DNA of 64,000 nt. Source: Escherichia phage CL1. The notes under the pieces are model-generated. The model was not told the origin of the DNA. It did no database searches and was given only the letters and a program-made list of their open reading frames with translations. Each line of letters starts with the position of its first letter. The stretch's first letter is position 1. Positions 14,194 through 29,521 of this stretch are shown here, piece by piece. The position numbers were made by a program, and so were the translations under genes. The stretch lies in the sequence record OK040806, one strand, 5' to 3'.

Positions 14194-15075
14194 ATGAAAA
14201 CATCTATCCGTGTTACAGTTCATTCACCAACTAAAGGTACTCATGAAGAAGAGTTTAACATCATCCAATTTCCTTCTGGTGAGATTGGTGGACACTTTTC
14301 ACAAGAGCTTGTTGATTTCACTGCTTATGCAGCATCATCCATCAACAATGTGATTATGATTGTAAAAGGTTATGATAAAGACACATTGTTTGCTGTGGCA
14401 CTTGCTAAAGAAGCAATTGATGATTTAGTCCCTCATGATTATGCTTTAAAGACTGTCATCTTTTACTACTTACCAAATGCACGATACGACCGTCACATGT
14501 TTAAAGGTGATGCAGCAGCTTTAAAGGTTTTTGCTAAGCAGGTCAATGCAATGGGGTTTGGCGCAGTCTGTGCAGTTGACCCTCACAGTTATGTACCAGA
14601 TAACCTGTTTAACTGCTTCCAGAGTATTCCTCAAAAGGAAATTGCAGTCCACTATGCAAATGACCCACTGGTTGATTACTTAGTAGCCCCAGATGCAGGT
14701 GCTTCTAAGAAGATTGCAGAGACTGCTAAAGAGGTGGATAAACCATATGTCACAATGTCTAAAGTACGTAACCTTAAGACTGGTGAAATTACTGGTATGC
14801 GAATCCTTGATGATGTTGATTTGACAGATAAAACCGTCATGATTCTGGATGATATTTGCGATGGTGGTCGAACCTTCATAGAGGCAGCTAAACATCTTCG
14901 TGAAGCAGGTGCAAGACGTGTGGAACTCTATGTAACTCATGGCATTTTCTCTAAAGGTGTTGAAAACTTGCTTGACAACGGCATTGACCACATCTACACT
15001 ACAAACTCTTTAGGGGAAGCTAAAGACCGTGGCTTAACACATTATGGTCAAGTTACTGTAGCAAACCTTGATTAA
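14194..15075 (+). CDS. prs: ribose-phosphate pyrophosphokinase-like (PRPP synthetase family; candidate ADP-ribose pyrophosphate synthetase)
   Basis: PRPP-binding motif VMILDDICDGGRT; ATG 14194 after GAGGG; immediately upstream of NampT-like gene. Confidence 0.85.
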   Translation: MKTSIRVTVHSPTKGTHEEEFNIIQFPSGEIGGHFSQELVDFTAYAASSINNVIMIVKGYDKDTLFAVALAKEAIDDLVPHDYALKTVIFYYLPNARYDRHMFKGDAAALKVFAKQVNAMGFGAVCAVDPHSYVPDNLFNCFQSIPQKEIAVHYANDPLVDYLVAPDAGASKKIAETAKEVDKPYVTMSKVRNLKTGEITGMRILDDVDLTDKTVMILDDICDGGRTFIEAAKHLREAGARRVELYVTHGIFSKGVENLLDNGIDHIYTTNSLGEAKDRGLTHYGQVTVANLD

Positions 15076-15084
15076 AACTTTATA

Positions 15085-15105
15085 GGGGCTTACAAGCCCC
15101 ATTTT
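15085..15105 (+). terminator. intrinsic terminator
   Basis: GGGGCTT-AC-AAGCCCC hairpin then ATTTT. Confidence 0.5.
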
Positions 15106-15120
15106 GAGAGAGATTAAAAG

Positions 15121-16902
15121 ATGACTAACTCACTTTATGCAGTACCAGCAGGTTTAAACGCAGATGCTTACAAATCTGGCCATATTTATCAGTATCCTAG
15201 TGTAACAGAGCATCTAATGTTCAACCTGACACCACGTAGTGATAAATGGTTTAACAGCCCTTTAGCAATTGATGGTGTAGTAGCTTTTGGTATTCAACGT
15301 TTTGTTAAAGATTACTTGATAGACCACTGGAATGCCACCTTCTTTGAACGTGACAAAAAAGAAGCAATTGACGAAATCTTGGAAGTCATGAACGGTGTTC
15401 TGGGTAAAGATGCTATTGGTCGAGAACATTGGGAAGCACTTCACGACTTAGGTTATCTACCAGTTGAAGTATACGCTGTAGAAGAAGGTACAGTTGTCCC
15501 TATGCGTGTTCCAATGATTGTATTCCAGAACACTGTTTCAGGTTTCCATTGGGTAGCAGGGTATCTAGAAGATGCTTTCTCTGCTGAGATTTGGAAGGCT
15601 TGTACCATTGCAACTATTGCATTGCACTACAAACGTATCTGTAAGAAGTGGTCTGACCTTACTTGTGACAATGACTTACATTTACCTTATCAGTGCCATG
15701 ATTTTGCTATGCGTGGTATGTCCGGCTTTACTGATGACGCATTTAACGCTGTAGGTCACTTGACTAGCTTTAAAGGAACTGATAGCTTCCCTGCTGTGTA
15801 TACAGCTAAACGCACCTATGGACAGTCCTACCCAATCTCTGATATCGGTGGTTCTGTACCAGCCACTGAGCATTCTGTAATGTGTGCAAACATTGCTTGG
15901 GAAGGTGGTAATGAGTTGATTGAAGAAGAAAGACGCTTTAAAGGTGAGTTACAAACCTTTCGTCGTTTCTTAACAGAAACTTACCCAACTGGTATTGCAA
16001 GTGTTGTTTCAGATACTTATAACTTCTGGAGAACTGTGTCAGAAATCTTACCAGCACTTCGCAAAGAGATTATGGAACGTGATGGTAAACTGGTGATTCG
16101 TCCTGACTCTGGAGACCCTGTACATATTGTCACAGGATATAAAGCAATCCACTTAGAGTGTGCTAAAAAGGCTTATTATGAACACCTAAGCAAGCTGGAA
16201 GCCAGTGACACAATGCTGAATGCTGTTCTGAACATGAAGCTTGAGAACATCAACTATGGTATTGCTGGGTGGCTACTGTCAGAAGGCTACGAAATGGTTG
16301 TTGACAGAGAAGACTTTGAAGTTGCCGATACAGTAATGTTGAAAAATGCTTATATGGTTGGTTCTGCAAACGTTGTAACGCGTCCTGTAGCGGAGATTGA
16401 TGGAGCTATCAAGACACTGTATAACATCTTTGGAGGAACTATCAACTCTAAAGGTTTTAAAGTACTGGATGAGCACATCGGGCTTATTTATGGCGACTCT
16501 ATCACGTTGGAACGTGCAAACGAAATACTGAAGCGTTTGTATGAAATGGGTTTTGCAAGCTCTAACGTAGTGTTTGGTGTAGGTTCTTACACTTACCAGT
16601 ACATGACTCGTGACACCTTTGCATTTGCTGTCAAAGCAACTCTTGCAAGCATTGGTGGTAAAGAGATTATGCTTGCAAAAGACCCTAAAACAGATAGTGG
16701 TGTTAAGAAGTCTGCTTTTGGTGGAGTAGCACCTATGTGGGATGGTGAAAATCTGAAAGCTGTAGATGGCTATGGGTTCCAGAGCTTTGCAGATGCACTT
16801 GAACACCCAGCTTGTGCTTTACGTTTAGTCTTTAGCGACTCTGAGCAGTTCGGCTACACGACTCTTGGTGATATTCGAAATAATATTGACAAGCAGCTTT
16901 AA
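15121..16902 (+). CDS. nadV: nicotinamide phosphoribosyltransferase family protein (NampT/NadV-like)
   Basis: 593 aa; N-terminal AVPAGLNADAYKSGHIYQYP typical of NampT. Confidence 0.85.
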   Translation: MTNSLYAVPAGLNADAYKSGHIYQYPSVTEHLMFNLTPRSDKWFNSPLAIDGVVAFGIQRFVKDYLIDHWNATFFERDKKEAIDEILEVMNGVLGKDAIGREHWEALHDLGYLPVEVYAVEEGTVVPMRVPMIVFQNTVSGFHWVAGYLEDAFSAEIWKACTIATIALHYKRICKKWSDLTCDNDLHLPYQCHDFAMRGMSGFTDDAFNAVGHLTSFKGTDSFPAVYTAKRTYGQSYPISDIGGSVPATEHSVMCANIAWEGGNELIEEERRFKGELQTFRRFLTETYPTGIASVVSDTYNFWRTVSEILPALRKEIMERDGKLVIRPDSGDPVHIVTGYKAIHLECAKKAYYEHLSKLEASDTMLNAVLNMKLENINYGIAGWLLSEGYEMVVDREDFEVADTVMLKNAYMVGSANVVTRPVAEIDGAIKTLYNIFGGTINSKGFKVLDEHIGLIYGDSITLERANEILKRLYEMGFASSNVVFGVGSYTYQYMTRDTFAFAVKATLASIGGKEIMLAKDPKTDSGVKKSAFGGVAPMWDGENLKAVDGYGFQSFADALEHPACALRLVFSDSEQFGYTTLGDIRNNIDKQL

Positions 16903-16916
16903 AAGTATATGATAAA

Positions 16917-16939
16917 AGGCTCCTACGGGAGCCTTTTTA
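16917..16939 (+). terminator. intrinsic terminator
   Basis: AGGCTCC-TACG-GGAGCCT hairpin then TTTTT. Confidence 0.6.
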
Positions 16940-16955
16940 ATTTCTGGAGAATGCT

Positions 16956-17300
16956 ATGGACAACCTTTCCATATGGTTTAACAAGAAACCTGTGCAACCA
17001 AAATACTTACAAGTTGCATATACAGACATCCTTGAAGTTCTCGGTAAAGAAAAGTTTGAAAAGTTTTGTGAAGGTATCTACAATCACCACTGCCAATTTG
17101 CTACAAAAGAAGGTATGTTTGTCATAGAACAGTTCTTTGGCAGAGACCCAGATGACTACGAAGAGATTAGCTTTGTAATGAAATACATGATAGAGTATAT
17201 TGAAAATCGTGGATTCGAAGTTAATCCTGAATTTTATGAACATGAGGGTGTGCCTTTAGTAAAAGGTTTTGATGGCATACTCGTTAACTGGACTTGGTGA
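16956..17300 (+). CDS. hypothetical protein
   Basis: 114 aa ORF with ATG start. Confidence 0.5.
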   Translation: MDNLSIWFNKKPVQPKYLQVAYTDILEVLGKEKFEKFCEGIYNHHCQFATKEGMFVIEQFFGRDPDDYEEISFVMKYMIEYIENRGFEVNPEFYEHEGVPLVKGFDGILVNWTW

Positions 17301-23745: not shown

Positions 23746-24011
23746 CAGAGAATGAAGATACTTTCTATGTAGAAGGGTACTTACTGCTACCACGACCAAA
23801 AGAAACTTATGTGCGGGTTGATTTCTCACCAACCATTATGGATAACGTGATGTGTCATATCTTTATGCAAGGTGTCACAGCACAGCTTAAGCATGTTGGA
23901 AAAGAGTGCAAAATAAAGGTTGACACTCATCCAGAAATCAAAGAGAATCACTACACATGGTTCTTACCAGACTCTAAAGAAATCTTAGCAGTTCTTAAAA
24001 CGAGGAAATGA
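23742..24011 (+). CDS. hypothetical protein
   Basis: 89 aa; start overlaps upstream stop. Confidence 0.45.
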   Translation: MTENEDTFYVEGYLLLPRPKETYVRVDFSPTIMDNVMCHIFMQGVTAQLKHVGKECKIKVDTHPEIKENHYTWFLPDSKEILAVLKTRK

Positions 24012-24319
24012 TTATGCAATTCCAGCCAACCAATCGTGGATTTTCTTATGCAGAATTTAAAGATGCTAAAGGGGAAATTTGTACTTTACAGGAGAGTTCA
24101 TCATATGAACCATGTATTTGGTTAGGTGCTAAAGAGGTCTCTGTTCAGTACCTAGATGGTGGCTGGAAAACACTTGATATCCCATCATTAGTAGGCAAAG
24201 ATTTTGTAGGTAACCAAAGAATGAAACTCAACCAAGAACAGGTGAAAGAGTTATTGCCGTACCTTCAGTACTTTGCTGAAAATGGTGAATTACCAACAGA
24301 GGAACTTACAAATGGGTGA
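24008..24319 (+). CDS. hypothetical protein
   Basis: 103 aa; ATGA overlap with upstream gene. Confidence 0.45.
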   Translation: MIMQFQPTNRGFSYAEFKDAKGEICTLQESSSYEPCIWLGAKEVSVQYLDGGWKTLDIPSLVGKDFVGNQRMKLNQEQVKELLPYLQYFAENGELPTEELTNG

Positions 24320-24716
24320 CTGTGCAGATGATGCAGACCGTTGGGCTGAACTTCAAGACTTAAGAGCAGAGTTTAGAGACCTCTTAGTGAGGTCTTCTAA
24401 AACAAATGTAGAGTACACACAAAAGGATTTTCCAAAGGTTCCTTTATATGTTATACACCAAAATAATCTAATGAACTCTGGATTAAGTTTGCAACAAAGG
24501 ATGGAAATTTGCCTAGCAAGGTATTACATTAATGTTGACGCCAAAGTTGGTGAATTGATTAAGTGTCCGTGCTGTAATCTTGAATTTAAGAAGAAGTCAT
24601 ACCAACAAAAGTTTTGTGGAGTTAAAAAGAGAGGTCGCTCTAACTGTAAAGACTTCTTCTTTAATTTCACTGACTTAAAAAGAAATAACAGAGCTAAGTT
24701 CTTTATTGTGGGGTGA
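24312..24716 (+). CDS. hypothetical Cys-rich protein
   Basis: ATG 24312 after GAGGA; contains CPCCN..C cluster; track start 24273 is TTG. Confidence 0.4.
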   Translation: MGDCADDADRWAELQDLRAEFRDLLVRSSKTNVEYTQKDFPKVPLYVIHQNNLMNSGLSLQQRMEICLARYYINVDAKVGELIKCPCCNLEFKKKSYQQKFCGVKKRGRSNCKDFFFNFTDLKRNNRAKFFIVG

Positions 24717-24718
24717 TT

Positions 24719-25045
24719 ATGGAAGTGAACGGTAAAACCATTGTAGCTGTCATCCAAGATAGTGAAAAAGATATTGGTGTAGCACAAGTCACATATGGTA
24801 ACGGCAAGTTCCTATATGGTGTTGTGGCAATGGTAGGAACAAGAAGTGATACAAAAACTTTTAAAGATTGTGTTGACCTTCTTGAAGAATCCATCCACAA
24901 TCATTGGTGTCTGATATGGATGACTGACAACGAAGTGATAGAACGCTTCAAAAAGATTGATATCAACATTGATAGTATTGAGCATGTTGATTTATATGAG
25001 CTAACTGAGAAGGTAAACTATGAAAGTAATACTAGCCAGAGATAA
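24719..25045 (+). CDS. hypothetical protein
   Basis: ATG 24719; track start 24713 is GTG. Confidence 0.45.
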   Translation: MEVNGKTIVAVIQDSEKDIGVAQVTYGNGKFLYGVVAMVGTRSDTKTFKDCVDLLEESIHNHWCLIWMTDNEVIERFKKIDINIDSIEHVDLYELTEKVNYESNTSQR

Positions 25046-25253
25046 AAAGACCCGCAAGATTGTACGTTCAGCAGTATTCATAGGGAGAGATGAAGTCGTT
25101 CCGTTTGCAGGGGAAGATGTGTTAACTTATAAGAAAGGTTTAAAACGTAAATTCAGTGACCGTTTACGTGGCTTCATATCTGAACCATTAGAAGATTTTA
25201 AAAGTCGCTGTGGTAAAGGCATCATCACTCAAGAGGCAATTATTCATGGCTGA
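25020..25253 (+). CDS. hypothetical protein
   Basis: 77 aa ORF with ATG start. Confidence 0.4.
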   Translation: MKVILARDKKTRKIVRSAVFIGRDEVVPFAGEDVLTYKKGLKRKFSDRLRGFISEPLEDFKSRCGKGIITQEAIIHG

Positions 25254-25446
25254 TTTCTGCAAAGATTGTGCTATCGAAATGTTCGGACGTGATACAGGTG
25301 ACTTAAAAGGTCTTATCACTGAAGATGACTTTAAAGCTGGCTATGCAATGCCAGTAATCTGTGAAGGTTGTGGATGTATCTGGGTAGACCACGAAGGGCA
25401 ACGTGTAAAACCTTCAGAAGATAAAGAATCTTGGGAGAGATGTTAA
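25246..25446 (+). CDS. small zinc-ribbon-like protein
   Basis: CKDC ... CEGCGC four-Cys pattern; ATG 25246 overlapping upstream stop. Confidence 0.4.
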   Translation: MADFCKDCAIEMFGRDTGDLKGLITEDDFKAGYAMPVICEGCGCIWVDHEGQRVKPSEDKESWERC

Positions 25447-26232
25447 ATGGGTATTGTGAAAATCATCAATGGTGATATCTTTGCAGCATTTGATAAAGGT
25501 AAGTTTGATGTCATCGGTCACGGTTGCAACTGTATGAACTTAATGGGTGCAGGTATCGCTGACAAGATTTCTAAACTTTACCCAAAAGCATATGAGACTG
25601 ATACAGAAGTTTATCTGTATGCAGGTGGCATAGGCCACAAGCCCTGTGAGAATTTACTAGGCAATTTCTCTGTAGCACGTTTAAAACAAGGTCGTATAGC
25701 TAACCTTTACACTCAGCTTAAGACTGGTAAAGATGCCCGATACAGTGCTTTAGAGTCATCTTTGAAACAACTTAACAGATACTGTGAAGTAAATCAGTTG
25801 AAGAAAGTTGGCTTGCCTATGATTGGTGCAGGTATCGGTGGGCTAGACCCTCAAGCCGTCACAGTTATCATTAATCAGGTGATGAAGAGTGTAGATGTGT
25901 ATCTGTATGTCTACGAGACAAAGATGTACAACGAGTTACACTCAGGTTGGAAGAACTACTGCGAACCAGAATACTTTGCAGGTGTAGTAACGTTCACAGA
26001 CAATACAGTTACCCTCTTCAGACGAAGAAAAGGTAAGATACATCAAAGTAACCCTCCGGTTGAGAAGATGTCTCTAAGTAACGCTCTAGTTACCCACCTG
26101 TCGAAGAGCAATCACAGGATAGCTGTAACATTTGGTAGTGATGCAGATACATATATCTATGCAAGAACTGATGAGGATATCGAGACGGTCTTCTCTTCAC
26201 CAGAAGTTACCTTTTTAGGCGCAAAGAACTAA
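25447..26232 (+). CDS. macro-domain-like protein (putative ADP-ribose binding/hydrolase) with C-terminal extension
   Basis: INGDIF..DVIGHGCNCMNLMGAGIA and VGLPMIGAGIGGLDP resemble the two conserved macro-domain glycine-rich motifs. Confidence 0.45.
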   Translation: MGIVKIINGDIFAAFDKGKFDVIGHGCNCMNLMGAGIADKISKLYPKAYETDTEVYLYAGGIGHKPCENLLGNFSVARLKQGRIANLYTQLKTGKDARYSALESSLKQLNRYCEVNQLKKVGLPMIGAGIGGLDPQAVTVIINQVMKSVDVYLYVYETKMYNELHSGWKNYCEPEYFAGVVTFTDNTVTLFRRRKGKIHQSNPPVEKMSLSNALVTHLSKSNHRIAVTFGSDADTYIYARTDEDIETVFSSPEVTFLGAKN

Positions 26233-26304
26233 GAAAATCTGTATAATATTCACAATAGACTAAGCCTTTCTTATCTGGTAAATTTTTTCAGGTAAGGAGG
26301 GCTT

Positions 26305-26500
26305 TTTTTATTTCAAGATTGTGCAGGTAGAGTTCTGTAGAGAAATCTGTAGAGAGAATTTTGAACTCCAAAGAGAAAATTCATTTTCAAACTGTGCAGG
26401 TAATCTCCAAAGAGCTTTTTCATTTTCAAAACGTGCAGACCCCGCTCAGGTCGGGCAAGAAAAATCATTTTAGAATTGTGCAGGTAGGTGGGTGCAGGTG
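26305..26500. repeat. degenerate direct repeats TTTCAA(A)NTGTGCAGGTA (4 copies) plus tandem duplication of a ~38-bp unit
   Basis: Copies near 26315, 26383, 26423, 26471; unit CTCCAAAGAG..CATTTTCAAA..GTGCAG repeated at 26368-26445; no credible coding frame. Confidence 0.5.
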
Positions 26501-26662
26501 GGAATGTCGCCATTTCTCACAAGGCTACCACATCTGGAAATAAAAGTCAACAGAAAAATTTGTAGCGGATTGAAAAATAATTCTTGATTGTAGTTCTGTT
26601 TTGTGGTAGTCGCGCGCACCCGTTTCATTACAATTTTGCAAAAAATATTTTTAAAATTCCTA

Positions 26663-26691
26663 TTGACTCTTTGAGTATGGTTATCTAATAT
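26663..26691 (+). promoter_or_regulatory. sigma70-like promoter (TTGACT-N17-TAATAT) for the small-ORF array
   Basis: TTGACT 26663-26668, TAATAT 26686-26691, about 50 nt upstream of ATG 26742. Confidence 0.55.
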
Positions 26692-26741
26692 TTGCATCAG
26701 ACGGGCAAGCCAGCCCACTTCCTAAACTGGAGAATCTAAAA

Positions 26742-26948
26742 ATGCTTTACAGTCGCGAATTGATGGTTACAACTAACGTTAACACAGGTGTAAAACGTTT
26801 CTACATGCAAATCTGCGGCGTATGGTCCAGAATATCAGAAGATGACTATTGCAACTATGTAGGAACGGCTATTAATTCTAATTGCTATCTGACAAGAAAC
26901 ACTAAGAAATTTACAAGGCAGACAGCGATTTACTACTACGACAAATAA
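26742..26948 (+). CDS. array ORF 1, hypothetical (68 aa)
   Basis: ATG preceded by conserved CTAAACTGGAGAATCTAAAA. Confidence 0.5.
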   Translation: MLYSRELMVTTNVNTGVKRFYMQICGVWSRISEDDYCNYVGTAINSNCYLTRNTKKFTRQTAIYYYDK

Positions 26949-27036
26949 AGTACTTTACAGGGGGCTTAAAAGCTGATATCTTAAGCCCCAGATAAAGAGC
27001 TTTACTAAATTAACCCTTAAACTAGGAGATTCAAAA
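26949..27036 (+). repeat. type A intergenic cassette (copy 1, variant)
   Basis: GGGGCTTAA..TTAAGCCCC hairpin + AGATAAAGAGCTTTAC + CTAGGAGATTCAAAA leader. Confidence 0.6.
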
Positions 27037-27417
27037 ATGGCTTATCGTGCACCGAAATTCATCAACAAAGACAACTTCCGCAACGCACTGGAGAAGTCAC
27101 TTGATGAAAAATTTAACGGCAAATTGATTGTTGTTCACGCATTCAATTTTAAGTATGATATTAACGGGAATAAAATCAACCATTACACGGCAACCATGTT
27201 AGATGGTACGCTATCAAGTGAAAAAGCCGTACTGAATGCACTTGCAGGACGTGGTAAAAACCTGATAAGATGCGATAAGAGACGTTATCAGGGTGGCGCA
27301 TATGGTTATGATGATGCTGTTTATCATCTTGAAAATATGGGCTATTCAGTGGAAAAAGCTGGAGTGTCTCAAATAATCGGCAGTGATGGTTATGTAACAA
27401 TCTTCAAAATTAACTAA
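27037..27417 (+). CDS. array ORF 2, hypothetical (126 aa)
   Basis: Conserved leader AAACTAGGAGATTCAAAAATG. Confidence 0.55.
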   Translation: MAYRAPKFINKDNFRNALEKSLDEKFNGKLIVVHAFNFKYDINGNKINHYTATMLDGTLSSEKAVLNALAGRGKNLIRCDKRRYQGGAYGYDDAVYHLENMGYSVEKAGVSQIIGSDGYVTIFKIN

Positions 27418-27505
27418 TAAAGTACTTTACAAGGGGCTTATAGTTCGATAAAGTAAGCCCCAGATAAAGAGCTTTACCACTAAATCCTAAATTGGAGATT
27501 CAAAA
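27418..27505 (+). repeat. type A intergenic cassette (copy 2)
   Basis: TTTACA-N17-TAAAGT promoter-like element overlapping hairpin GGGGCTTATAGTTCGATAAAGTAAGCCCC, then AGATAAAGAGCTTTAC and conserved leader. Confidence 0.6.
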
Positions 27506-27763
27506 ATGGCTATCATCAAAAACGTTGTAATTACTGCAAAGACTCGTGATGACGCTCGCATCATGGCGAAAAAGTTAGGCGGGAAAGTGGTTGACAACGG
27601 AAAACAATCTGCTGTAAGATGGGGCGTGAAGGCTGATAAAAAGTTAACCTTAAAACGCAGTTCAAATAACCTCTTTAAAGGTGTAAAATCACTCGGTAAA
27701 GTGAACGTGTTTACTAAACAAGGTTACAAAATGCACTTATCATTAACTGGCAATTTAATCTGA
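27506..27763 (+). CDS. array ORF 3, hypothetical basic protein (85 aa)
   Basis: Conserved leader; Lys-rich. Confidence 0.55.
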   Translation: MAIIKNVVITAKTRDDARIMAKKLGGKVVDNGKQSAVRWGVKADKKLTLKRSSNNLFKGVKSLGKVNVFTKQGYKMHLSLTGNLI

Positions 27764-27852
27764 TAAAGTACTTTACAAGGGGCTTATAGTTCGATAAAGT
27801 AAGCCCCAGATAAAGAGCTTTACTAACTAAATCCTAAACTGGAGATTCTAAA
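27764..27852 (+). repeat. type A intergenic cassette (copy 3)
   Basis: Near-identical to copy 2. Confidence 0.6.
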
Positions 27853-28365
27853 ATGAAAACTGTAGACGCTACCTTTGAAGTTGTAAAAGAAAAATTCACC
27901 ATTATTTATGAAGCTGTCAATTGCTTTGAAGCAAGCCATAATCTTGATAATTGGAAGTTTACAGATGACCATCAAGGCGGCGTGACGATTAAAAATCCTA
28001 ACTGTCAGAGTAATGAATTTAAATATGCAATCCCTTTGCATTACAGCCTTAAGCAGCTTTCAAGTGACTATGCAAAACAAGGCCGTGAGAATCCATCGAA
28101 AGAGGCTTACACGAGCTTACAGAAAGAACTAGAAAGGGATTTAGAGGCTTCAGAGTATAACATTGCCGCGAAAGTTGTAGATGCAAACGGTAGCACGGTT
28201 TTAGAGAGTTTTTATATTGGTTATGCTTTCGATTGGTGCTACAGTGACGGCGATGATTTAGATGACAGACTAAAAGAGGAAGTGAACAACGCAGACGCAG
28301 AATCTGAAGTATTAGAACGCTTGGAAGCATTAAAAGATTCAGTGATGAATATCTTTAAGAACTAA
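27853..28365 (+). CDS. array ORF 4, hypothetical acidic protein (170 aa)
   Basis: Conserved leader; acidic C-terminal region DGDDLDDRLKEEVNNADAESE. Confidence 0.55.
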   Translation: MKTVDATFEVVKEKFTIIYEAVNCFEASHNLDNWKFTDDHQGGVTIKNPNCQSNEFKYAIPLHYSLKQLSSDYAKQGRENPSKEAYTSLQKELERDLEASEYNIAAKVVDANGSTVLESFYIGYAFDWCYSDGDDLDDRLKEEVNNADAESEVLERLEALKDSVMNIFKN

Positions 28366-28453
28366 ATAGATTTCTTTACACGGGGCTAACAAGCGGATAT
28401 GATAGCCCCAGATAAAGAGCTTTACTACTAAATCCTAAACTGGAGACTCTAAA
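28366..28453 (+). repeat. type A intergenic cassette (copy 4, variant loop)
   Basis: GGGGCTA..TAGCCCC hairpin + AGATAAAGAGCTTTAC. Confidence 0.55.
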
Positions 28454-28750
28454 ATGAAATTATCGAATAAAGTTCGTGAAAACCTTAGTAAATTACTCAA
28501 CAAAATTGATTTTATCGAGACATCAAGAAATAATCATGATGTTATGGAATGGTTGCACGGCAAAATAAAAGGCCGTCGCGTAGTGATTTGCTTATGGAAT
28601 AGTTGCAGGGAGTATAAAAAGCCTGTATTGCAAATTAATGTTTATGATGATACTTTTAAAAGTCCTGTAAAGTCTAAAAGCGATTTATTAGAATCCTATG
28701 AGATAACTGTAAATGGCAAAGTATCACGTAAAGAGGAAACACCATGTTAA
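28454..28750 (+). CDS. array ORF 5, hypothetical (98 aa)
   Basis: Conserved leader. Confidence 0.55.
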   Translation: MKLSNKVRENLSKLLNKIDFIETSRNNHDVMEWLHGKIKGRRVVICLWNSCREYKKPVLQINVYDDTFKSPVKSKSDLLESYEITVNGKVSRKEETPC

Positions 28751-29076
28751 TGACTGGTATCACTGCAATCATTGCCATTTTCGCGCTATATAAGGCATAT
28801 AAAGCCTATAATCTAGCAAATAAGGCAATCACACAGCAAGTTAGTAATAACCTTGTAGAGAGCTTTCTAGGGCGTTTAAGTGATGAGCAAATAAAGCGGC
28901 TAGAGATGAGCTTCAGATATAAAGCGAAAACCTATCAGATAAGTGACATCTTCAAAGAGGATTTTCAGCTTGTCGATGATTATAACTCACTGATAAATGC
29001 TTTAAATATCAGTGACTTAAAAGATTATTACGCTGTAATTGTCCAAGAACTGAACAAACGAAAACAAAACTGTTGA
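28744..29076 (+). CDS. array ORF 6, membrane protein (110 aa)
   Basis: ATGTTAA overlap with ORF 5 stop; N-terminal TM helix GITAIIAIFALY. Confidence 0.5.
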   Translation: MLMTGITAIIAIFALYKAYKAYNLANKAITQQVSNNLVESFLGRLSDEQIKRLEMSFRYKAKTYQISDIFKEDFQLVDDYNSLINALNISDLKDYYAVIVQELNKRKQNC

Positions 29077-29162
29077 CACTGATTTTTAGATAACCTAAAT
29101 TACTAATCAACGGGAGGGATGACCTCCCACTAAACAAAGTCCTTAAACTAGGAGATTCAAAA
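29073..29162 (+). repeat. type B cassette (copy 1): promoter + GGGAGG..CCTCCC leader hairpin
   Basis: TTGACA 29073-29078, N17, TAAATT 29096-29101; leader AATCAACGGGAGGGATGACCTCCCAC; then AAAGTCCTTAAACTAGGAGATTCAAAAATG. Confidence 0.6.
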
Positions 29163-29435
29163 ATGTATACTACTAATAACGGTCGTACTCTAAATGTAAC
29201 TTTGCGCCACTATGTTAACGGCGTGATGCACTTTGAAGATTTACAAGCTGAACAACATATCTTAGATTGGCAACTTGCAGGACTACAAAAAACTGCTACA
29301 GGATACGGGAAAAAGATTCCAACTAGTTGGAAAGTATACTATGAAGGGCGTTTGCGCAGAATTTATCAAGATGTATACAGCAATAGCGCAACAAGTTACA
29401 TCATGGTAAAAGGTAAAAAATTACACTTAGTATAA
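29163..29435 (+). CDS. array ORF 7, hypothetical (90 aa)
   Basis: Conserved leader. Confidence 0.55.
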   Translation: MYTTNNGRTLNVTLRHYVNGVMHFEDLQAEQHILDWQLAGLQKTATGYGKKIPTSWKVYYEGRLRRIYQDVYSNSATSYIMVKGKKLHLV

Positions 29436-29521
29436 AGTACTTTACAAGGGGCTTATAGTTCGATAGAGTAAGCCCCAGATAAAGAGCTTTACTACTCAAT
29501 CCTAAATTGGAGAACTTAAAA
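29436..29521 (+). repeat. type A intergenic cassette (copy 5)
   Basis: Same hairpin and AGATAAAGAGCTTTAC element. Confidence 0.6.

What the first reader, a model, noticed from the sequence alone, without database searches (positions are those of the whole stretch)
25447..26232. Macro-domain-like protein at the end of the early operon
The N-terminal ~150 aa carry two glycine-rich motifs arranged like the ADP-ribose-binding pocket of macro domains (GDIF..DVIGHGCNCMNLMGAGIA and LPMIGAGIGGLDP), followed by a ~100-aa extension of unknown fold. Phage macro domains are candidates for removing ADP-ribose marks or degrading ADP-ribose-derived signals of host defence. Its position near the NAD-related pair suggests a shared theme.
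Basis: inference. Interest (0 to 1): 0.6.

Follow-up and report, generated by a model that had tools for sequence, protein, structure and literature searches.

The report
Phage macrodomain enzyme with orphan tail
This gene of a Felix O1-like coliphage encodes a genuine ADP-ribose-processing macrodomain, most likely a counter-defence enzyme that strips ADP-ribose put on phage DNA by bacterial DarT-type toxins, fused to a small domain found nowhere else.

Summary
Window 25447-26232 (+) is a 261-aa ORF in Escherichia phage C600M2 (Felixounavirus). Residues 1-157 are a real macrodomain: Pfam Macro scores above its cutoff, and the model (pLDDT 87) best matches TARG1, DarG and Poa1p. Residues 158-261 form a beta-rich domain with no detectable relative by sequence or fold outside this protein family. 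A strong terminator follows the gene.

The macrodomain belongs to PHROG 335. That family contains two recently characterised phage proteins. T4 Tk.4/AdfM is an anti-DarTG2 factor (genetic evidence). Vibrio phage Adpp is an ADPR-1''-phosphate phosphatase that feeds the NARP1 NAD+ pathway. This phage carries NARP1, but 8.5 kb and 16 genes away.

One feature separates the two. All 14 NARP1-adjacent Adpp lineages, and Poa1p, have a 12-15-residue loop after the catalytic-position residue. This protein, T4 AdfM, PhiKZ AdfM and TARG1 have 8. A relative that has deleted NARP1 keeps the gene intact.

I favour an AdfM-like DNA de-ADP-ribosylase (about 0.45) over an Adpp working in trans (about 0.22). 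It is already annotated as a macro-domain protein. The new points are the orphan C-terminal domain, the loop signature, and two deeply divergent alleles within one genus. Interest is moderate.

The parts
25447..26232 (+). Complete CDS, 261 aa plus stop. It is C600M2_92 in OK040807.1, annotated there as 'O-acetyl-ADP-ribose deacetylase'.
   Evidence: ORF list; 100% match to the phage record; PHROG 335 E=5e-112.
25434..25439 (+). Shine-Dalgarno GGAGAG, 7 nt before the ATG. The ATG abuts the upstream gene's TAA stop, suggesting translational coupling.
   Evidence: Sequence read directly.
25447..25917 (+). Macrodomain, aa 1-157, of the ALC1-like / TARG1-DarG-Poa1p class.
   Evidence: Pfam PF01661 at 32.3 bits; Foldseek top hits TARG1 4j5s, DarG 5m3e/5m3i and Poa1p 6lfr; NCBIfam DarG 47.7 bits and PADLOC DarG 48.3 bits, covering the macro half only.
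25519..25560 (+). H25-G-C-N28-C29 ... M33-G-A-G-I-A38: the catalytic His/Asn region and the first phosphate-binding glycine loop.
   Evidence: Invariant in 20 family members. H25 corresponds to Adpp H24 (H24A abolishes anti-aRES function) and to Poa1p H23. N28 corresponds to PhiKZ AdfM N23 (N23A reduces activity).
25702..25743 (+). N86-L-Y-T-Q90 motif plus the short 8-residue loop LKTGKDAR before Y99. Q90 occupies the position of TARG1 K84, DarG K80 and SCO6735 Q85.
   Evidence: HMMER alignments to TARG1; equivalence of K84, K80 and Q85 from PMC9411070; loop-length survey.
25816..25848 (+). P124-M-I-G-A-G-I-G-G-L-D134: the second phosphate-binding glycine loop.
   Evidence: P124, I126, G127 and G129 are invariant across the family. 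The stretch aligns to TARG1 P118-R-I-G-C-G-L-D125.
25918..26229 (+). C-terminal orphan domain, aa 158-261: a linker helix, six beta-strands and a short helix.
26262..26312 (+). Intrinsic terminator: a 17-bp stem with a 9-nt loop, followed by a T-run.
   Evidence: RNA fold gives dG -24.9 kcal/mol and z -5.59, with 0 of 200 shuffles as stable. The simple scan missed it because of its loop-length limit.
14194..16902 (+). Context only: the NARP1 operon (Adps 14194-15075, Namat 15121-16902), 8.5 kb upstream. Not shown to be functionally coupled to the macro gene.
   Evidence: Annotation of the phage record; coordinates located in the window; NARP1 was defined experimentally in the close relative Bas63.

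Best explanation
The gene encodes a two-domain phage counter-defence enzyme. The N-terminal macrodomain binds the ADP-ribose moiety of a modified macromolecule and hydrolyses the bond at the distal ribose C1''. It uses the invariant His25/Asn28 and Gln90, a Gln-type active site like that of SCO6735 rather than the Lys of DarG and TARG1. The most likely substrate is ADP-ribosyl-thymidine installed on single-stranded phage DNA by DarT2-type toxins, which would make the protein an orphan antitoxin mimic like T4 Tk.4/AdfM. The fast-evolving C-terminal domain, found only in this protein family, probably provides partner or substrate recognition.

Shown here: the ORF, the fold, the class, the active-site motifs, homology to AdfM and to Adpp, the short-loop signature, the terminator, and the orphan status of the C-terminal domain.
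Taken from the literature: the activities of the homologues.
Inferred: the substrate of this protein and the role of its C-terminal domain.
For: 1) It is a real macrodomain of the TARG1/DarG/Poa1p class.
2) It is homologous to T4 Tk.4/AdfM at 35% identity, E=3e-24, over the whole macrodomain, and both have PHROG 335 as top hit. Knocking out T4 tk.4 sensitises T4 to DarTG2.
3) The only significant curated-family match is DarG: NCBIfam NF048014 at 47.7 bits and PADLOC DarG at 48.3 bits. Both scores are higher than those of T4 AdfM or Adpp.
4) Q90 sits at the TARG1 K84 / DarG K80 position. SCO6735 has Gln there, cleaves dT-ADPr DNA, and is inactivated by Q85A.
5) The loop after this residue is 8 residues long, as in T4 AdfM, PhiKZ AdfM (which biochemically removes DarT2 ADP-ribose from DNA) and TARG1. 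All 14 distinct NARP1-adjacent Adpp lineages have 12-15 residues, and Poa1p has 14-15.
6) With the loop masked, the protein still scores higher on a short-loop HMM than on a long-loop HMM: 148.8 versus 134.5 bits.
7) A Felixounavirus contig (L009) has cleanly deleted NARP1 but keeps the gene intact at 99% identity.
8) There is localised allele replacement. In L026 the flanking genes are 92-98% identical but the macrodomain is 53% and the C-terminal domain 26% identical. The C-terminal domain diverges faster than the macrodomain in every comparison. This pattern is typical of arms-race genes.
Against: No experiment exists on this protein or on any Felixounavirus homologue. The evidence for T4 AdfM is genetic only, and 35% identity does not establish orthology. 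The biochemically proven Adpp phosphatase is in the same family (29% identical to this protein, 35% to T4 AdfM) and shares every catalytic motif, including the His whose mutation kills Adpp. The loop-length rule is a correlation across related lineages, not a demonstrated specificity determinant. The loop lengths of DarG and SCO6735 themselves could not be read. The phage does carry NARP1, and the NARP1...rIIA-rIIB...macro gene order is conserved even in relatives only 33% identical. The C-terminal domain has no consistent positive charge (pI 4.8-9.7), so a DNA-binding role is not supported.
Confidence: 0.45

Rival explanations
1. It is an Adpp-type ADPR-1''-phosphate phosphatase acting in trans. 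It would convert the ADPR-1''-P made by RES-domain NAD+ phosphorylases (aRES) into ADPR, which the phage's own NARP1 (Adps + Namat) then rebuilds into NAD+. That would amount to a split NARP1-AP pathway.
For: The phage encodes NARP1 on the same strand in the same gene block. The protein is homologous to Adpp (29% identity, E=8e-15). It keeps H25, equivalent to Adpp H24 whose H24A mutation abolishes function, and to Poa1p H23. NARP1 and the macro gene are both near-universal in the genus: 215, 203 and 214 records for NARP1, macro and rIIA respectively. They remain syntenic in relatives only 33% identical. Many records annotate it as 'phosphatase'.
Against: It is not in the operon: 16 genes and 8.5 kb separate them. 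No Escherichia, Salmonella, Citrobacter or Erwinia phage appears in the published list of NARP1-associated macro proteins. It lacks the 12-15-residue aromatic/basic loop present in 14 of 14 Adpp lineages and in Poa1p. With the loop masked it still scores 14 bits higher on the short-loop HMM. L009 lost NARP1 but kept the gene. T4 carries a short-loop homologue, and no Adps or Namat was detected within 10 kb of the T4-type macros sampled. The Erwinia-phage two-domain homologues replace the catalytic His with Gln.
Confidence: 0.22
2. It is a promiscuous macrodomain that performs both reactions, dT-ADPr DNA hydrolysis and ADPR-1''-P dephosphorylation, so one gene covers both DarT2-type and aRES-type defences.
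For: AdfM and Adpp are 35% identical and share all active-site motifs. Macrodomains of this class are known to be multi-substrate enzymes: TARG1 acts on protein, O-acetyl-ADPR and DNA substrates (PMC8501950 and PMC9411070). The loop-masked HMM scores for this protein are intermediate.
Against: The clean split in loop length between NARP1-embedded and other family members suggests specialisation rather than promiscuity. No dual-activity phage macrodomain has been reported in the papers read.
Confidence: 0.13
3. It reverses ADP-ribosylation of proteins or RNA, installed either by host toxins or by the phage's own enzymes, or it acts as a housekeeping O-acetyl-ADP-ribose deacetylase, as the GenBank product name says.
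For: The best sequence and structure matches include TARG1/OARD1, a protein glutamate-ADPr hydrolase and O-acetyl-ADPR deacetylase. That similarity is the source of the record's product name.
Against: The TARG1 Lys84/Asp125 dyad used for protein substrates is absent, replaced by Q90 and G131. No sirtuin or ADP-ribosyltransferase is annotated in the 24.8 kb around the gene. The characterised phage members of this family act on DNA adducts or on ADPR-1''-P.
Confidence: 0.12
4. It is a non-catalytic ADP-ribose binder or sponge, for example one that sequesters an ADP-ribose-derived immune signal.
For: The ADP-ribose-binding loops are intact. Some records call it a 'high-affinity ADP-ribose binding module'.
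Against: Residues needed only for catalysis in homologues (H25, N28, Q90) are invariant across the family. The characterised relatives are enzymes.
Confidence: 0.05

Closest known systems
T4 Tk.4 = AdfM (anti-DarT factor macrodomain; HIDEN-SEQ preprint 10.1101/2025.11.20.689424)
   Same: Same PHROG (335). 35% identity over the whole macrodomain, E=3e-24. Same HxCNC, MGxG, NLYTQ and PxIGxG motifs. Same Gln at the catalytic position and the same 8-residue loop. An orphan phage gene with no adjacent toxin.
   Different: T4 Tk.4 is a single-domain protein of 155 aa. This protein adds a ~104-aa C-terminal domain. T4's function is known from a knockout phenotype; this protein is untested.
Adpp of Vibrio phage Gary (NARP1-AP pathway; preprint 10.64898/2026.01.28.702374)
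   Same: Same family, 29% identity with E=8e-15. Same catalytic His (H24/H25) and Gln. Both phages encode Adps and Namat.
   Different: Adpp sits between Adps and Namat, has a 15-residue His-rich loop after the Gln, and is a single-domain protein. This gene lies 8.5 kb from NARP1, has the 8-residue loop, and carries an extra domain.
PhiKZ gp104 'AdfM' (Cell Rep 2026, PMC13309987)
   Same: A phage macrodomain with an 8-residue loop and a conserved Asn (N23, equivalent to N28 here). It is proven to remove DarT2 ADP-ribose from DNA.
   Different: Only about 23% identical to this protein (E=2.6e-4). It is a Lys-type active site like DarG, and it is imported into the phage nucleus. It is a different lineage that happens to share the name AdfM.
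DarG antitoxin macrodomain (NCBIfam NF048014; PDB 5m31, 5m3e, 5m3i)
   Same: It is the best curated-family match, and its structures are among the top fold matches.
   Different: This protein scores 47.7 bits against a 250-bit cutoff. It has no DarT-binding C-terminal domain and no adjacent DarT, and it has Gln instead of the catalytic Lys80.
Human TARG1/OARD1 (PDB 4j5r, 4j5s)
   Same: The top sequence and structure hit. Same loop length. The adenine-contacting Asp (D10, equivalent to TARG1 D20) and both glycine loops align.
   Different: The TARG1 Lys84/Asp125 dyad is replaced by Gln90 and Gly131.
Streptomyces SCO6735 (PDB 5e3b; PMC9411070)
   Same: An ALC1-like macrodomain with an essential Gln at the Lys84/Lys80 position. 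It cleaves thymidine-linked ADP-ribose on DNA.
   Different: Sequence similarity is weak (E=0.12-0.5). A residue-level alignment could not be displayed.
Yeast Poa1p (PDB 6lfq), ADPR-1''-phosphate phosphatase
   Same: Shares the H-x-C-N-C motif and the fold. It is the source of the 'phosphatase' annotation.
   Different: Poa1p has Ser at the Gln position and a 14-15-residue loop. It works in tRNA-splicing metabolism.

Membership tests
Macro domain (Pfam PF01661) | HMM score above the curated gathering threshold | tested here: met
   32.3 bits against a cutoff of 22, E=1e-7, aa 25-141.
Macro domain (Pfam PF01661) | Macro fold: a three-layer alpha/beta/alpha sandwich | tested here: met
   The model has pLDDT 87. 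228 PDB matches at E<=0.001; the top 50 listed are macrodomain structures or designed serine hydrolases (NESG OSH55 series), with target-normalised TM up to 0.85.
Macro domain (Pfam PF01661) | ADP-ribose binding | not testable with these tools
   Only the binding-loop motifs and the adenine-contacting Asp (D10) are conserved at sequence level.
ALC1-like class (TARG1 / DarG) | Closest structural neighbours are TARG1 and DarG | tested here: met
   Foldseek ranks 1-11 are TARG1, DarG and Poa1p.
ALC1-like class (TARG1 / DarG) | Catalytic lysine (TARG1 K84, DarG K80) | tested here: not met
   The aligned residue is Gln90, which is invariant in the phage family. This matches the SCO6735 Gln85 variant.
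DarG antitoxin (NCBIfam NF048014) | Full-length equivalog score of at least 250 bits, including the C-terminal DarT-binding domain | tested here: not met
   47.7 bits. Only model positions 12-151 of 338 are matched.
DarG antitoxin (NCBIfam NF048014) | Encoded next to a DarT toxin gene | tested here: not met
   The neighbours are 66-126-aa hypothetical proteins on one side and a ~500-bp non-coding gap on the other. The host genome is a lytic phage.
T4 Tk.4/AdfM family (PHROG 335, short-loop group) | Significant full-domain homology and the same PHROG | tested here: met
   BLASTP 35% identity, E=3e-24. PHROG 335 is the top hit for both proteins.
T4 Tk.4/AdfM family (PHROG 335, short-loop group) | 8-residue loop of the form Q-x-x-[PTG]-G-x-[ND]-x-x-Y | tested here: met
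   QLKTGKDARY here against QFQPGPNFEY in T4.
T4 Tk.4/AdfM family (PHROG 335, short-loop group) | Protects the phage from DarTG2 | not testable with these tools
   This needs plaque assays. No paper was found that tests Felixounaviruses against DarTG.
Adpp (NARP1-AP phosphatase) | Macro gene within two genes of Adps/Namat (the paper's own criterion) | tested here: not met
   16 genes and 8.5 kb separate them. No enterobacterial phage is listed in Table S1.
Adpp (NARP1-AP phosphatase) | Long (12-15 residue) loop after the conserved Gln | tested here: not met
   8 residues here, against 12-15 in 14 of 14 distinct Adpp lineages. This feature is my own observation, not a published criterion.
Adpp (NARP1-AP phosphatase) | Catalytic His (Gary Adpp H24) | tested here: met
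   H25 is conserved. It is also conserved in T4 AdfM, so it does not discriminate between the two functions.
Adpp (NARP1-AP phosphatase) | ADPR-1''-P to ADPR activity | not testable with these tools
   Requires an enzyme assay.

The most novel reading that the evidence does not exclude
The orphan C-terminal domain may be a specificity module that recognises a fast-evolving host partner. It could, for example, bind and inhibit a DarT-like toxin directly, as the unrelated C-terminal domain of DarG does. Alternatively it could direct the macrodomain to an ADP-ribose-based modification or signal that has not yet been described. Either would make this a new two-domain class of anti-defence enzyme, with its two deeply divergent alleles in one phage genus matched to different host systems.
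Probability: 0.15. Interest if true: 0.7.

Novelty: new variant of a known kind. Interest (0 to 1): 0.42.

Why it matters
Phage macrodomains of this family have only just been linked to two different counter-defence roles: erasing DarT2 DNA ADP-ribosylation, and rescuing NAD+ reconstitution from RES-type NAD+ phosphorylases. Felix O1-like phages are common and are used therapeutically and diagnostically against E. coli and Salmonella. They carry both NARP1 and this macro gene, so knowing which role the gene plays predicts which host defences they can evade. The loop-length signature found here (8 versus 12-15 residues after the catalytic-position residue) is a simple, testable rule for sorting the roughly 2,800 phage records with homologues into the two functional groups. 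The fused C-terminal domain and the two highly divergent alleles offer a way to study how specificity evolves. None of this overturns current understanding. It refines and extends it.

Tried and rejected
1) Simple promoter/terminator scan. It reported no terminator. I rejected that result because the scan allows loops of only 3-8 nt, and direct folding shows a strong terminator with a 9-nt loop.
2) Apparent standalone copies of the C-terminal domain (P0033, P0037). These are truncated gene calls of the same protein. The long hits (P0034, P0035, P0038, P0039) are beta-propeller or other repeat proteins and reflect compositional noise.
4) Catalytic residues as a discriminator between AdfM and Adpp. 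This was rejected because His, Asn and Gln are invariant in both.
5) Co-occurrence of NARP1 and the macro gene across isolates. This is uninformative because both are near-universal in the genus.
6) Published tests of Felixounaviruses against DarTG or aRES. None was found.
7) Reading the DarG and SCO6735 loops from PDB alignments. The five TARG1 sequence variants always filled the five displayed alignment slots. A plasmid search returned no DarG-annotated hit among the 25 rows shown.
8) A DNA-binding role for the C-terminal domain based on charge. This is not supported, because pI ranges from 4.8 to 9.7 across the family.
9) My first coordinates for the NARP1 genes were one base off, so the translations contained stops. 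This was corrected.

Full report
**What is there**
The window is 100% identical over the queried 2.3 kb (with one single-base gap) to Escherichia phage C600M2 (OK040807.1; Ounavirinae, Felixounavirus). At 25447..26232 on the + strand there is a 261-aa ORF with an ATG start. A GGAGAG Shine-Dalgarno lies 7 nt upstream, and the ATG directly follows the TAA stop of the upstream gene. The gene is the last of a tightly packed block of + strand genes. About 30 nt after its stop codon comes a 17-bp hairpin (dG -24.9 kcal/mol, z -5.6 against shuffles) followed by a T-run at 26262-26312. After that there are ~500 bp without a convincing gene. 'Early' expression was not tested.

**Fold and class**
Pfam Macro (PF01661) matches above its gathering threshold: 32.3 against 22 bits, aa 25-141. 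A model built from 19 homologues is confident, with pLDDT 87 and pTM 0.86. Its best solved-structure matches are human TARG1, the DarG macrodomains of T. aquaticus and M. tuberculosis, and yeast Poa1p, at E about 1e-9 to 1e-10 and target-normalised TM 0.75-0.85. This is the ALC1-like class of macrodomains.

D10 aligns with the adenine-contacting D20 of TARG1. The only significant curated-family matches are to DarG: NCBIfam NF048014 at 47.7 bits and PADLOC DarG at 48.3 bits. These cover only the macro half of the model and fall far below the 250-bit equivalog cutoff. The protein is therefore DarG-like, not a DarG.

**Active site**
HMMER alignments place the family-invariant Gln90 (motif NLYTQ) at the position of TARG1 Lys84, and Gly131 at the position of TARG1 Asp125. 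PMC9411070 states that TARG1 K84, DarG K80 and SCO6735 Q85 are equivalent. It also reports that SCO6735 lacks the lysine yet cleaves thymidine-linked ADP-ribose from DNA, and is inactivated by Q85A. This protein is thus a Gln-type member of the class.

**The C-terminal domain**
Residues 158-261 fold into a linker helix, a six-stranded beta unit and a short helix; pLDDT is 79 when the domain is modelled alone. Four lines of evidence show it has no known relatives:
- It has no Pfam match.
- The only significant BFVD match is a 260-aa macro protein of phage SUSP2, which belongs to its own family.
- A profile search of 1.84 billion representative proteins returned only the same macro fusions, two truncated gene calls of them, and repeat-protein noise.

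The domain has six well-conserved positions (N170, P174, F177, G179, D232, Y236) and no consistent charge. It is an orphan domain that occurs only fused to this macrodomain.

**Two published functions in one family**
PHROG 335 ('phosphatase') is the top PHROG both for this protein and for T4 Tk.4.
- A 2025 preprint shows that T4 tk.4 is the single T4 gene required to resist DarTG2, and renames it AdfM.
[quoted passage not shown] That compound is the product of aRES NAD+ phosphorolysis, and removing the phosphate lets NARP1 rebuild NAD+.

I took the orthologue from Vibrio phage Cody, which has the same Adps-macro-Namat operon, and compared all three proteins. The identities are: this protein and T4 AdfM 35% (E=3e-24); this protein and Adpp 29% (E=8e-15); T4 AdfM and Adpp 35% (E=1e-23). 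All three share H-x-C-N-C, M-G-x-G, N-[LV]-Y-x-Q and P-x-I-G-x-G. The inactivating Adpp mutation H24A maps to H25 here. The N23A mutation of the separately named PhiKZ 'AdfM', which biochemically removes DarT2 ADP-ribose from DNA, maps to N28. Catalytic residues therefore do not tell the two functions apart.

**A feature that does separate them**
Table S1 of the aRES preprint gives the sequences of NARP1-associated macro proteins. I aligned 14 distinct lineages from it with 76 unique family sequences, drawn from 79 viral-contig loci and the reference phages. I then counted the residues between the conserved Gln and the next conserved Tyr.

| Group | Loop length (residues) |
|---|---|
| All 14 Adpp lineages | 12-15 (Gary: QYHWHAHKVAPGRNTDY) |
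| This protein | 8 |
| Every Felixounavirus-type homologue | 8 |
| T4 AdfM | 8 |
| 34 other viral-contig sequences | 8 (pattern Q-x-x-[PTG]-G-x-[ND]-x-x-Y) |
| TARG1 (acts on dT-ADPr DNA) | 8 |
| PhiKZ AdfM (acts on dT-ADPr DNA) | 8 |
| Poa1p (phosphatase) | 14-15 |

The Poa1p sequence was verified. By homology to TARG1, this loop flanks the C1'' position of the distal ribose, where the leaving group sits.

With the loop columns masked, this protein still scores higher on an HMM of short-loop sequences than on one of long-loop sequences: 148.8 against 134.5 bits, with neither model trained on it or its close relatives. In a neighbour-joining tree, 13 of 14 Adpp lineages fall outside the large short-loop assemblage that contains both T4 AdfM and the two-domain clade. 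This is a correlation, without bootstrap support or phylogenetic correction, but it is consistent across the data.

**Relation to NARP1**
The upstream pair (Adps 14194-15075, Namat 15121-16902) is NARP1, which was discovered in the Felixounavirus Bas63. It lies 8.5 kb and 16 genes from the macro gene, with rIIA and rIIB between them. No enterobacterial phage is in the published list of NARP1-associated macro proteins.

Among isolated phages, NARP1, the macro gene and rIIA are all near-universal in the genus, at 215, 203 and 214 records. The gene order is kept even in uncultured relatives whose macro protein is only 33% identical. Co-occurrence is therefore uninformative. One contig, L009, has a clean deletion of window 14200-17299, which is exactly the NARP1 operon, yet it keeps an intact macro gene at 99% identity. 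I could only see the 17 kb of that contig that is held, so a NARP1 copy elsewhere on it cannot be excluded.

**Evolutionary signature**
In contig L026 the flanking genes are 92-98% identical in protein sequence to the window, but the macrodomain is 53% and the C-terminal domain 26% identical. This second allele is the type found in Salmonella phages Si3 and pSJ21. It forms a 90%-identity cluster of 96 members, against 1,060 members for the allele seen here. In every comparison the C-terminal domain diverges faster than the macrodomain: 87 against 92%, 49 against 77%, and 26 against 53%. Localised allele replacement and a fast-evolving accessory domain are what one expects of a gene engaged with variable host factors.

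**Verdict on mechanism**
I favour an AdfM-like ADP-ribosylglycohydrolase that removes DarT2-type ADP-ribose from phage DNA, with confidence about 0.45. The rivals are:
- an Adpp acting in trans with NARP1 (0.22);
- a dual-activity enzyme (0.13);
- reversal of protein or RNA ADP-ribosylation, or O-acetyl-ADPR deacetylation (0.12);
- a non-catalytic binder (0.05).

The substrate assignment and the role of the C-terminal domain are inferences. Nothing here measures activity.

**Novelty and interest**
The gene is already annotated in public records, variously as 'macro domain protein', 'phosphatase' or 'O-acetyl-ADP-ribose deacetylase'. Its family has two recent functional precedents. Three points appear to be new: the fused orphan domain, the loop-length signature that sorts the family into two groups, and the coexistence of two deeply divergent alleles in one genus. 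I rate it a new variant of a known kind, of moderate interest.

Noticed in passing
window 26310-26500: The ~500-bp non-coding gap after the terminator holds three to four direct repeats with the core 'TTTTCAAA(C/T)TGTGCAGGTA', at 26310, 26383 and 26467 (spacing 73 and 84 nt). They are followed by GGTGGGTGCAGGTGGG. They could be protein-binding sites or part of a small RNA.
   Followed up: no
window 26945-29513: An ~82-nt intergenic module recurs before five successive small genes (26945, 27417, 27763, 28365, 29432). Each copy has a GGGGCTTA...TAAGCCCC hairpin, then ATAAAGAGCTTTAC, then TCCTAAACTGGAGA with the ribosome-binding site. It looks like a repeated terminator/promoter/RBS cassette.
   Followed up: no
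window 24008-25253: The region just upstream of the macro gene is variable between otherwise ~95% identical relatives. The ORFs at 24008-24716 are absent from L009, L022, L026 and L027 (and from the more distant L029). The 77-aa ORF at 25020-25253 is only 26-36% identical there, while the next gene (25246-25446) is 98% identical.
   Followed up: partly
L009:2546-2559 (equivalent to window 14200-17299): A Felixounavirus contig from IMG/VR has a clean ~3.1-kb deletion that removes exactly the NARP1 operon (Adps + Namat), while the flanking genes are retained at ~94% nucleotide identity.
   Followed up: partly
L028:8483-9265 and L029:9998-10780: The two-domain homologues of the Erwinia phage phiEa21-4 type (260 aa, 44-45% identical) have Gln instead of the otherwise near-invariant catalytic His25. 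That His is the residue whose mutation inactivates Adpp. L038 shows the same change.
   Followed up: no
literature: Two groups independently gave the name AdfM to different phage macrodomain lineages. T4 Tk.4 is the Gln type in PHROG 335. PhiKZ gp104 is a DarG-like Lys type. PhiKZ gp104 is only ~23% identical to the protein studied here, and a T4 versus PhiKZ BLASTP aligns only 23 residues (E=0.005).
   Followed up: partly
L066/L067:10001-10456 and L073:10001-10456: Uncultured phage contigs show further arrangements of macro and NARP1 genes. In L066/L067 a long-loop macro directly abuts a Namat-like gene. In L073 a short-loop macro sits 4-5 kb upstream of Adps and Namat.
   Followed up: no
window 14194 versus 25447, and 24700-27000: The offset between window and OK040807.1 coordinates differs by one base between the NARP1 genes and the macro gene. 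The 2301-nt query also aligns to 2300 nt of the record. The window therefore differs from the deposited record by at least two single-base indels, apparently outside these coding sequences.
   Followed up: no
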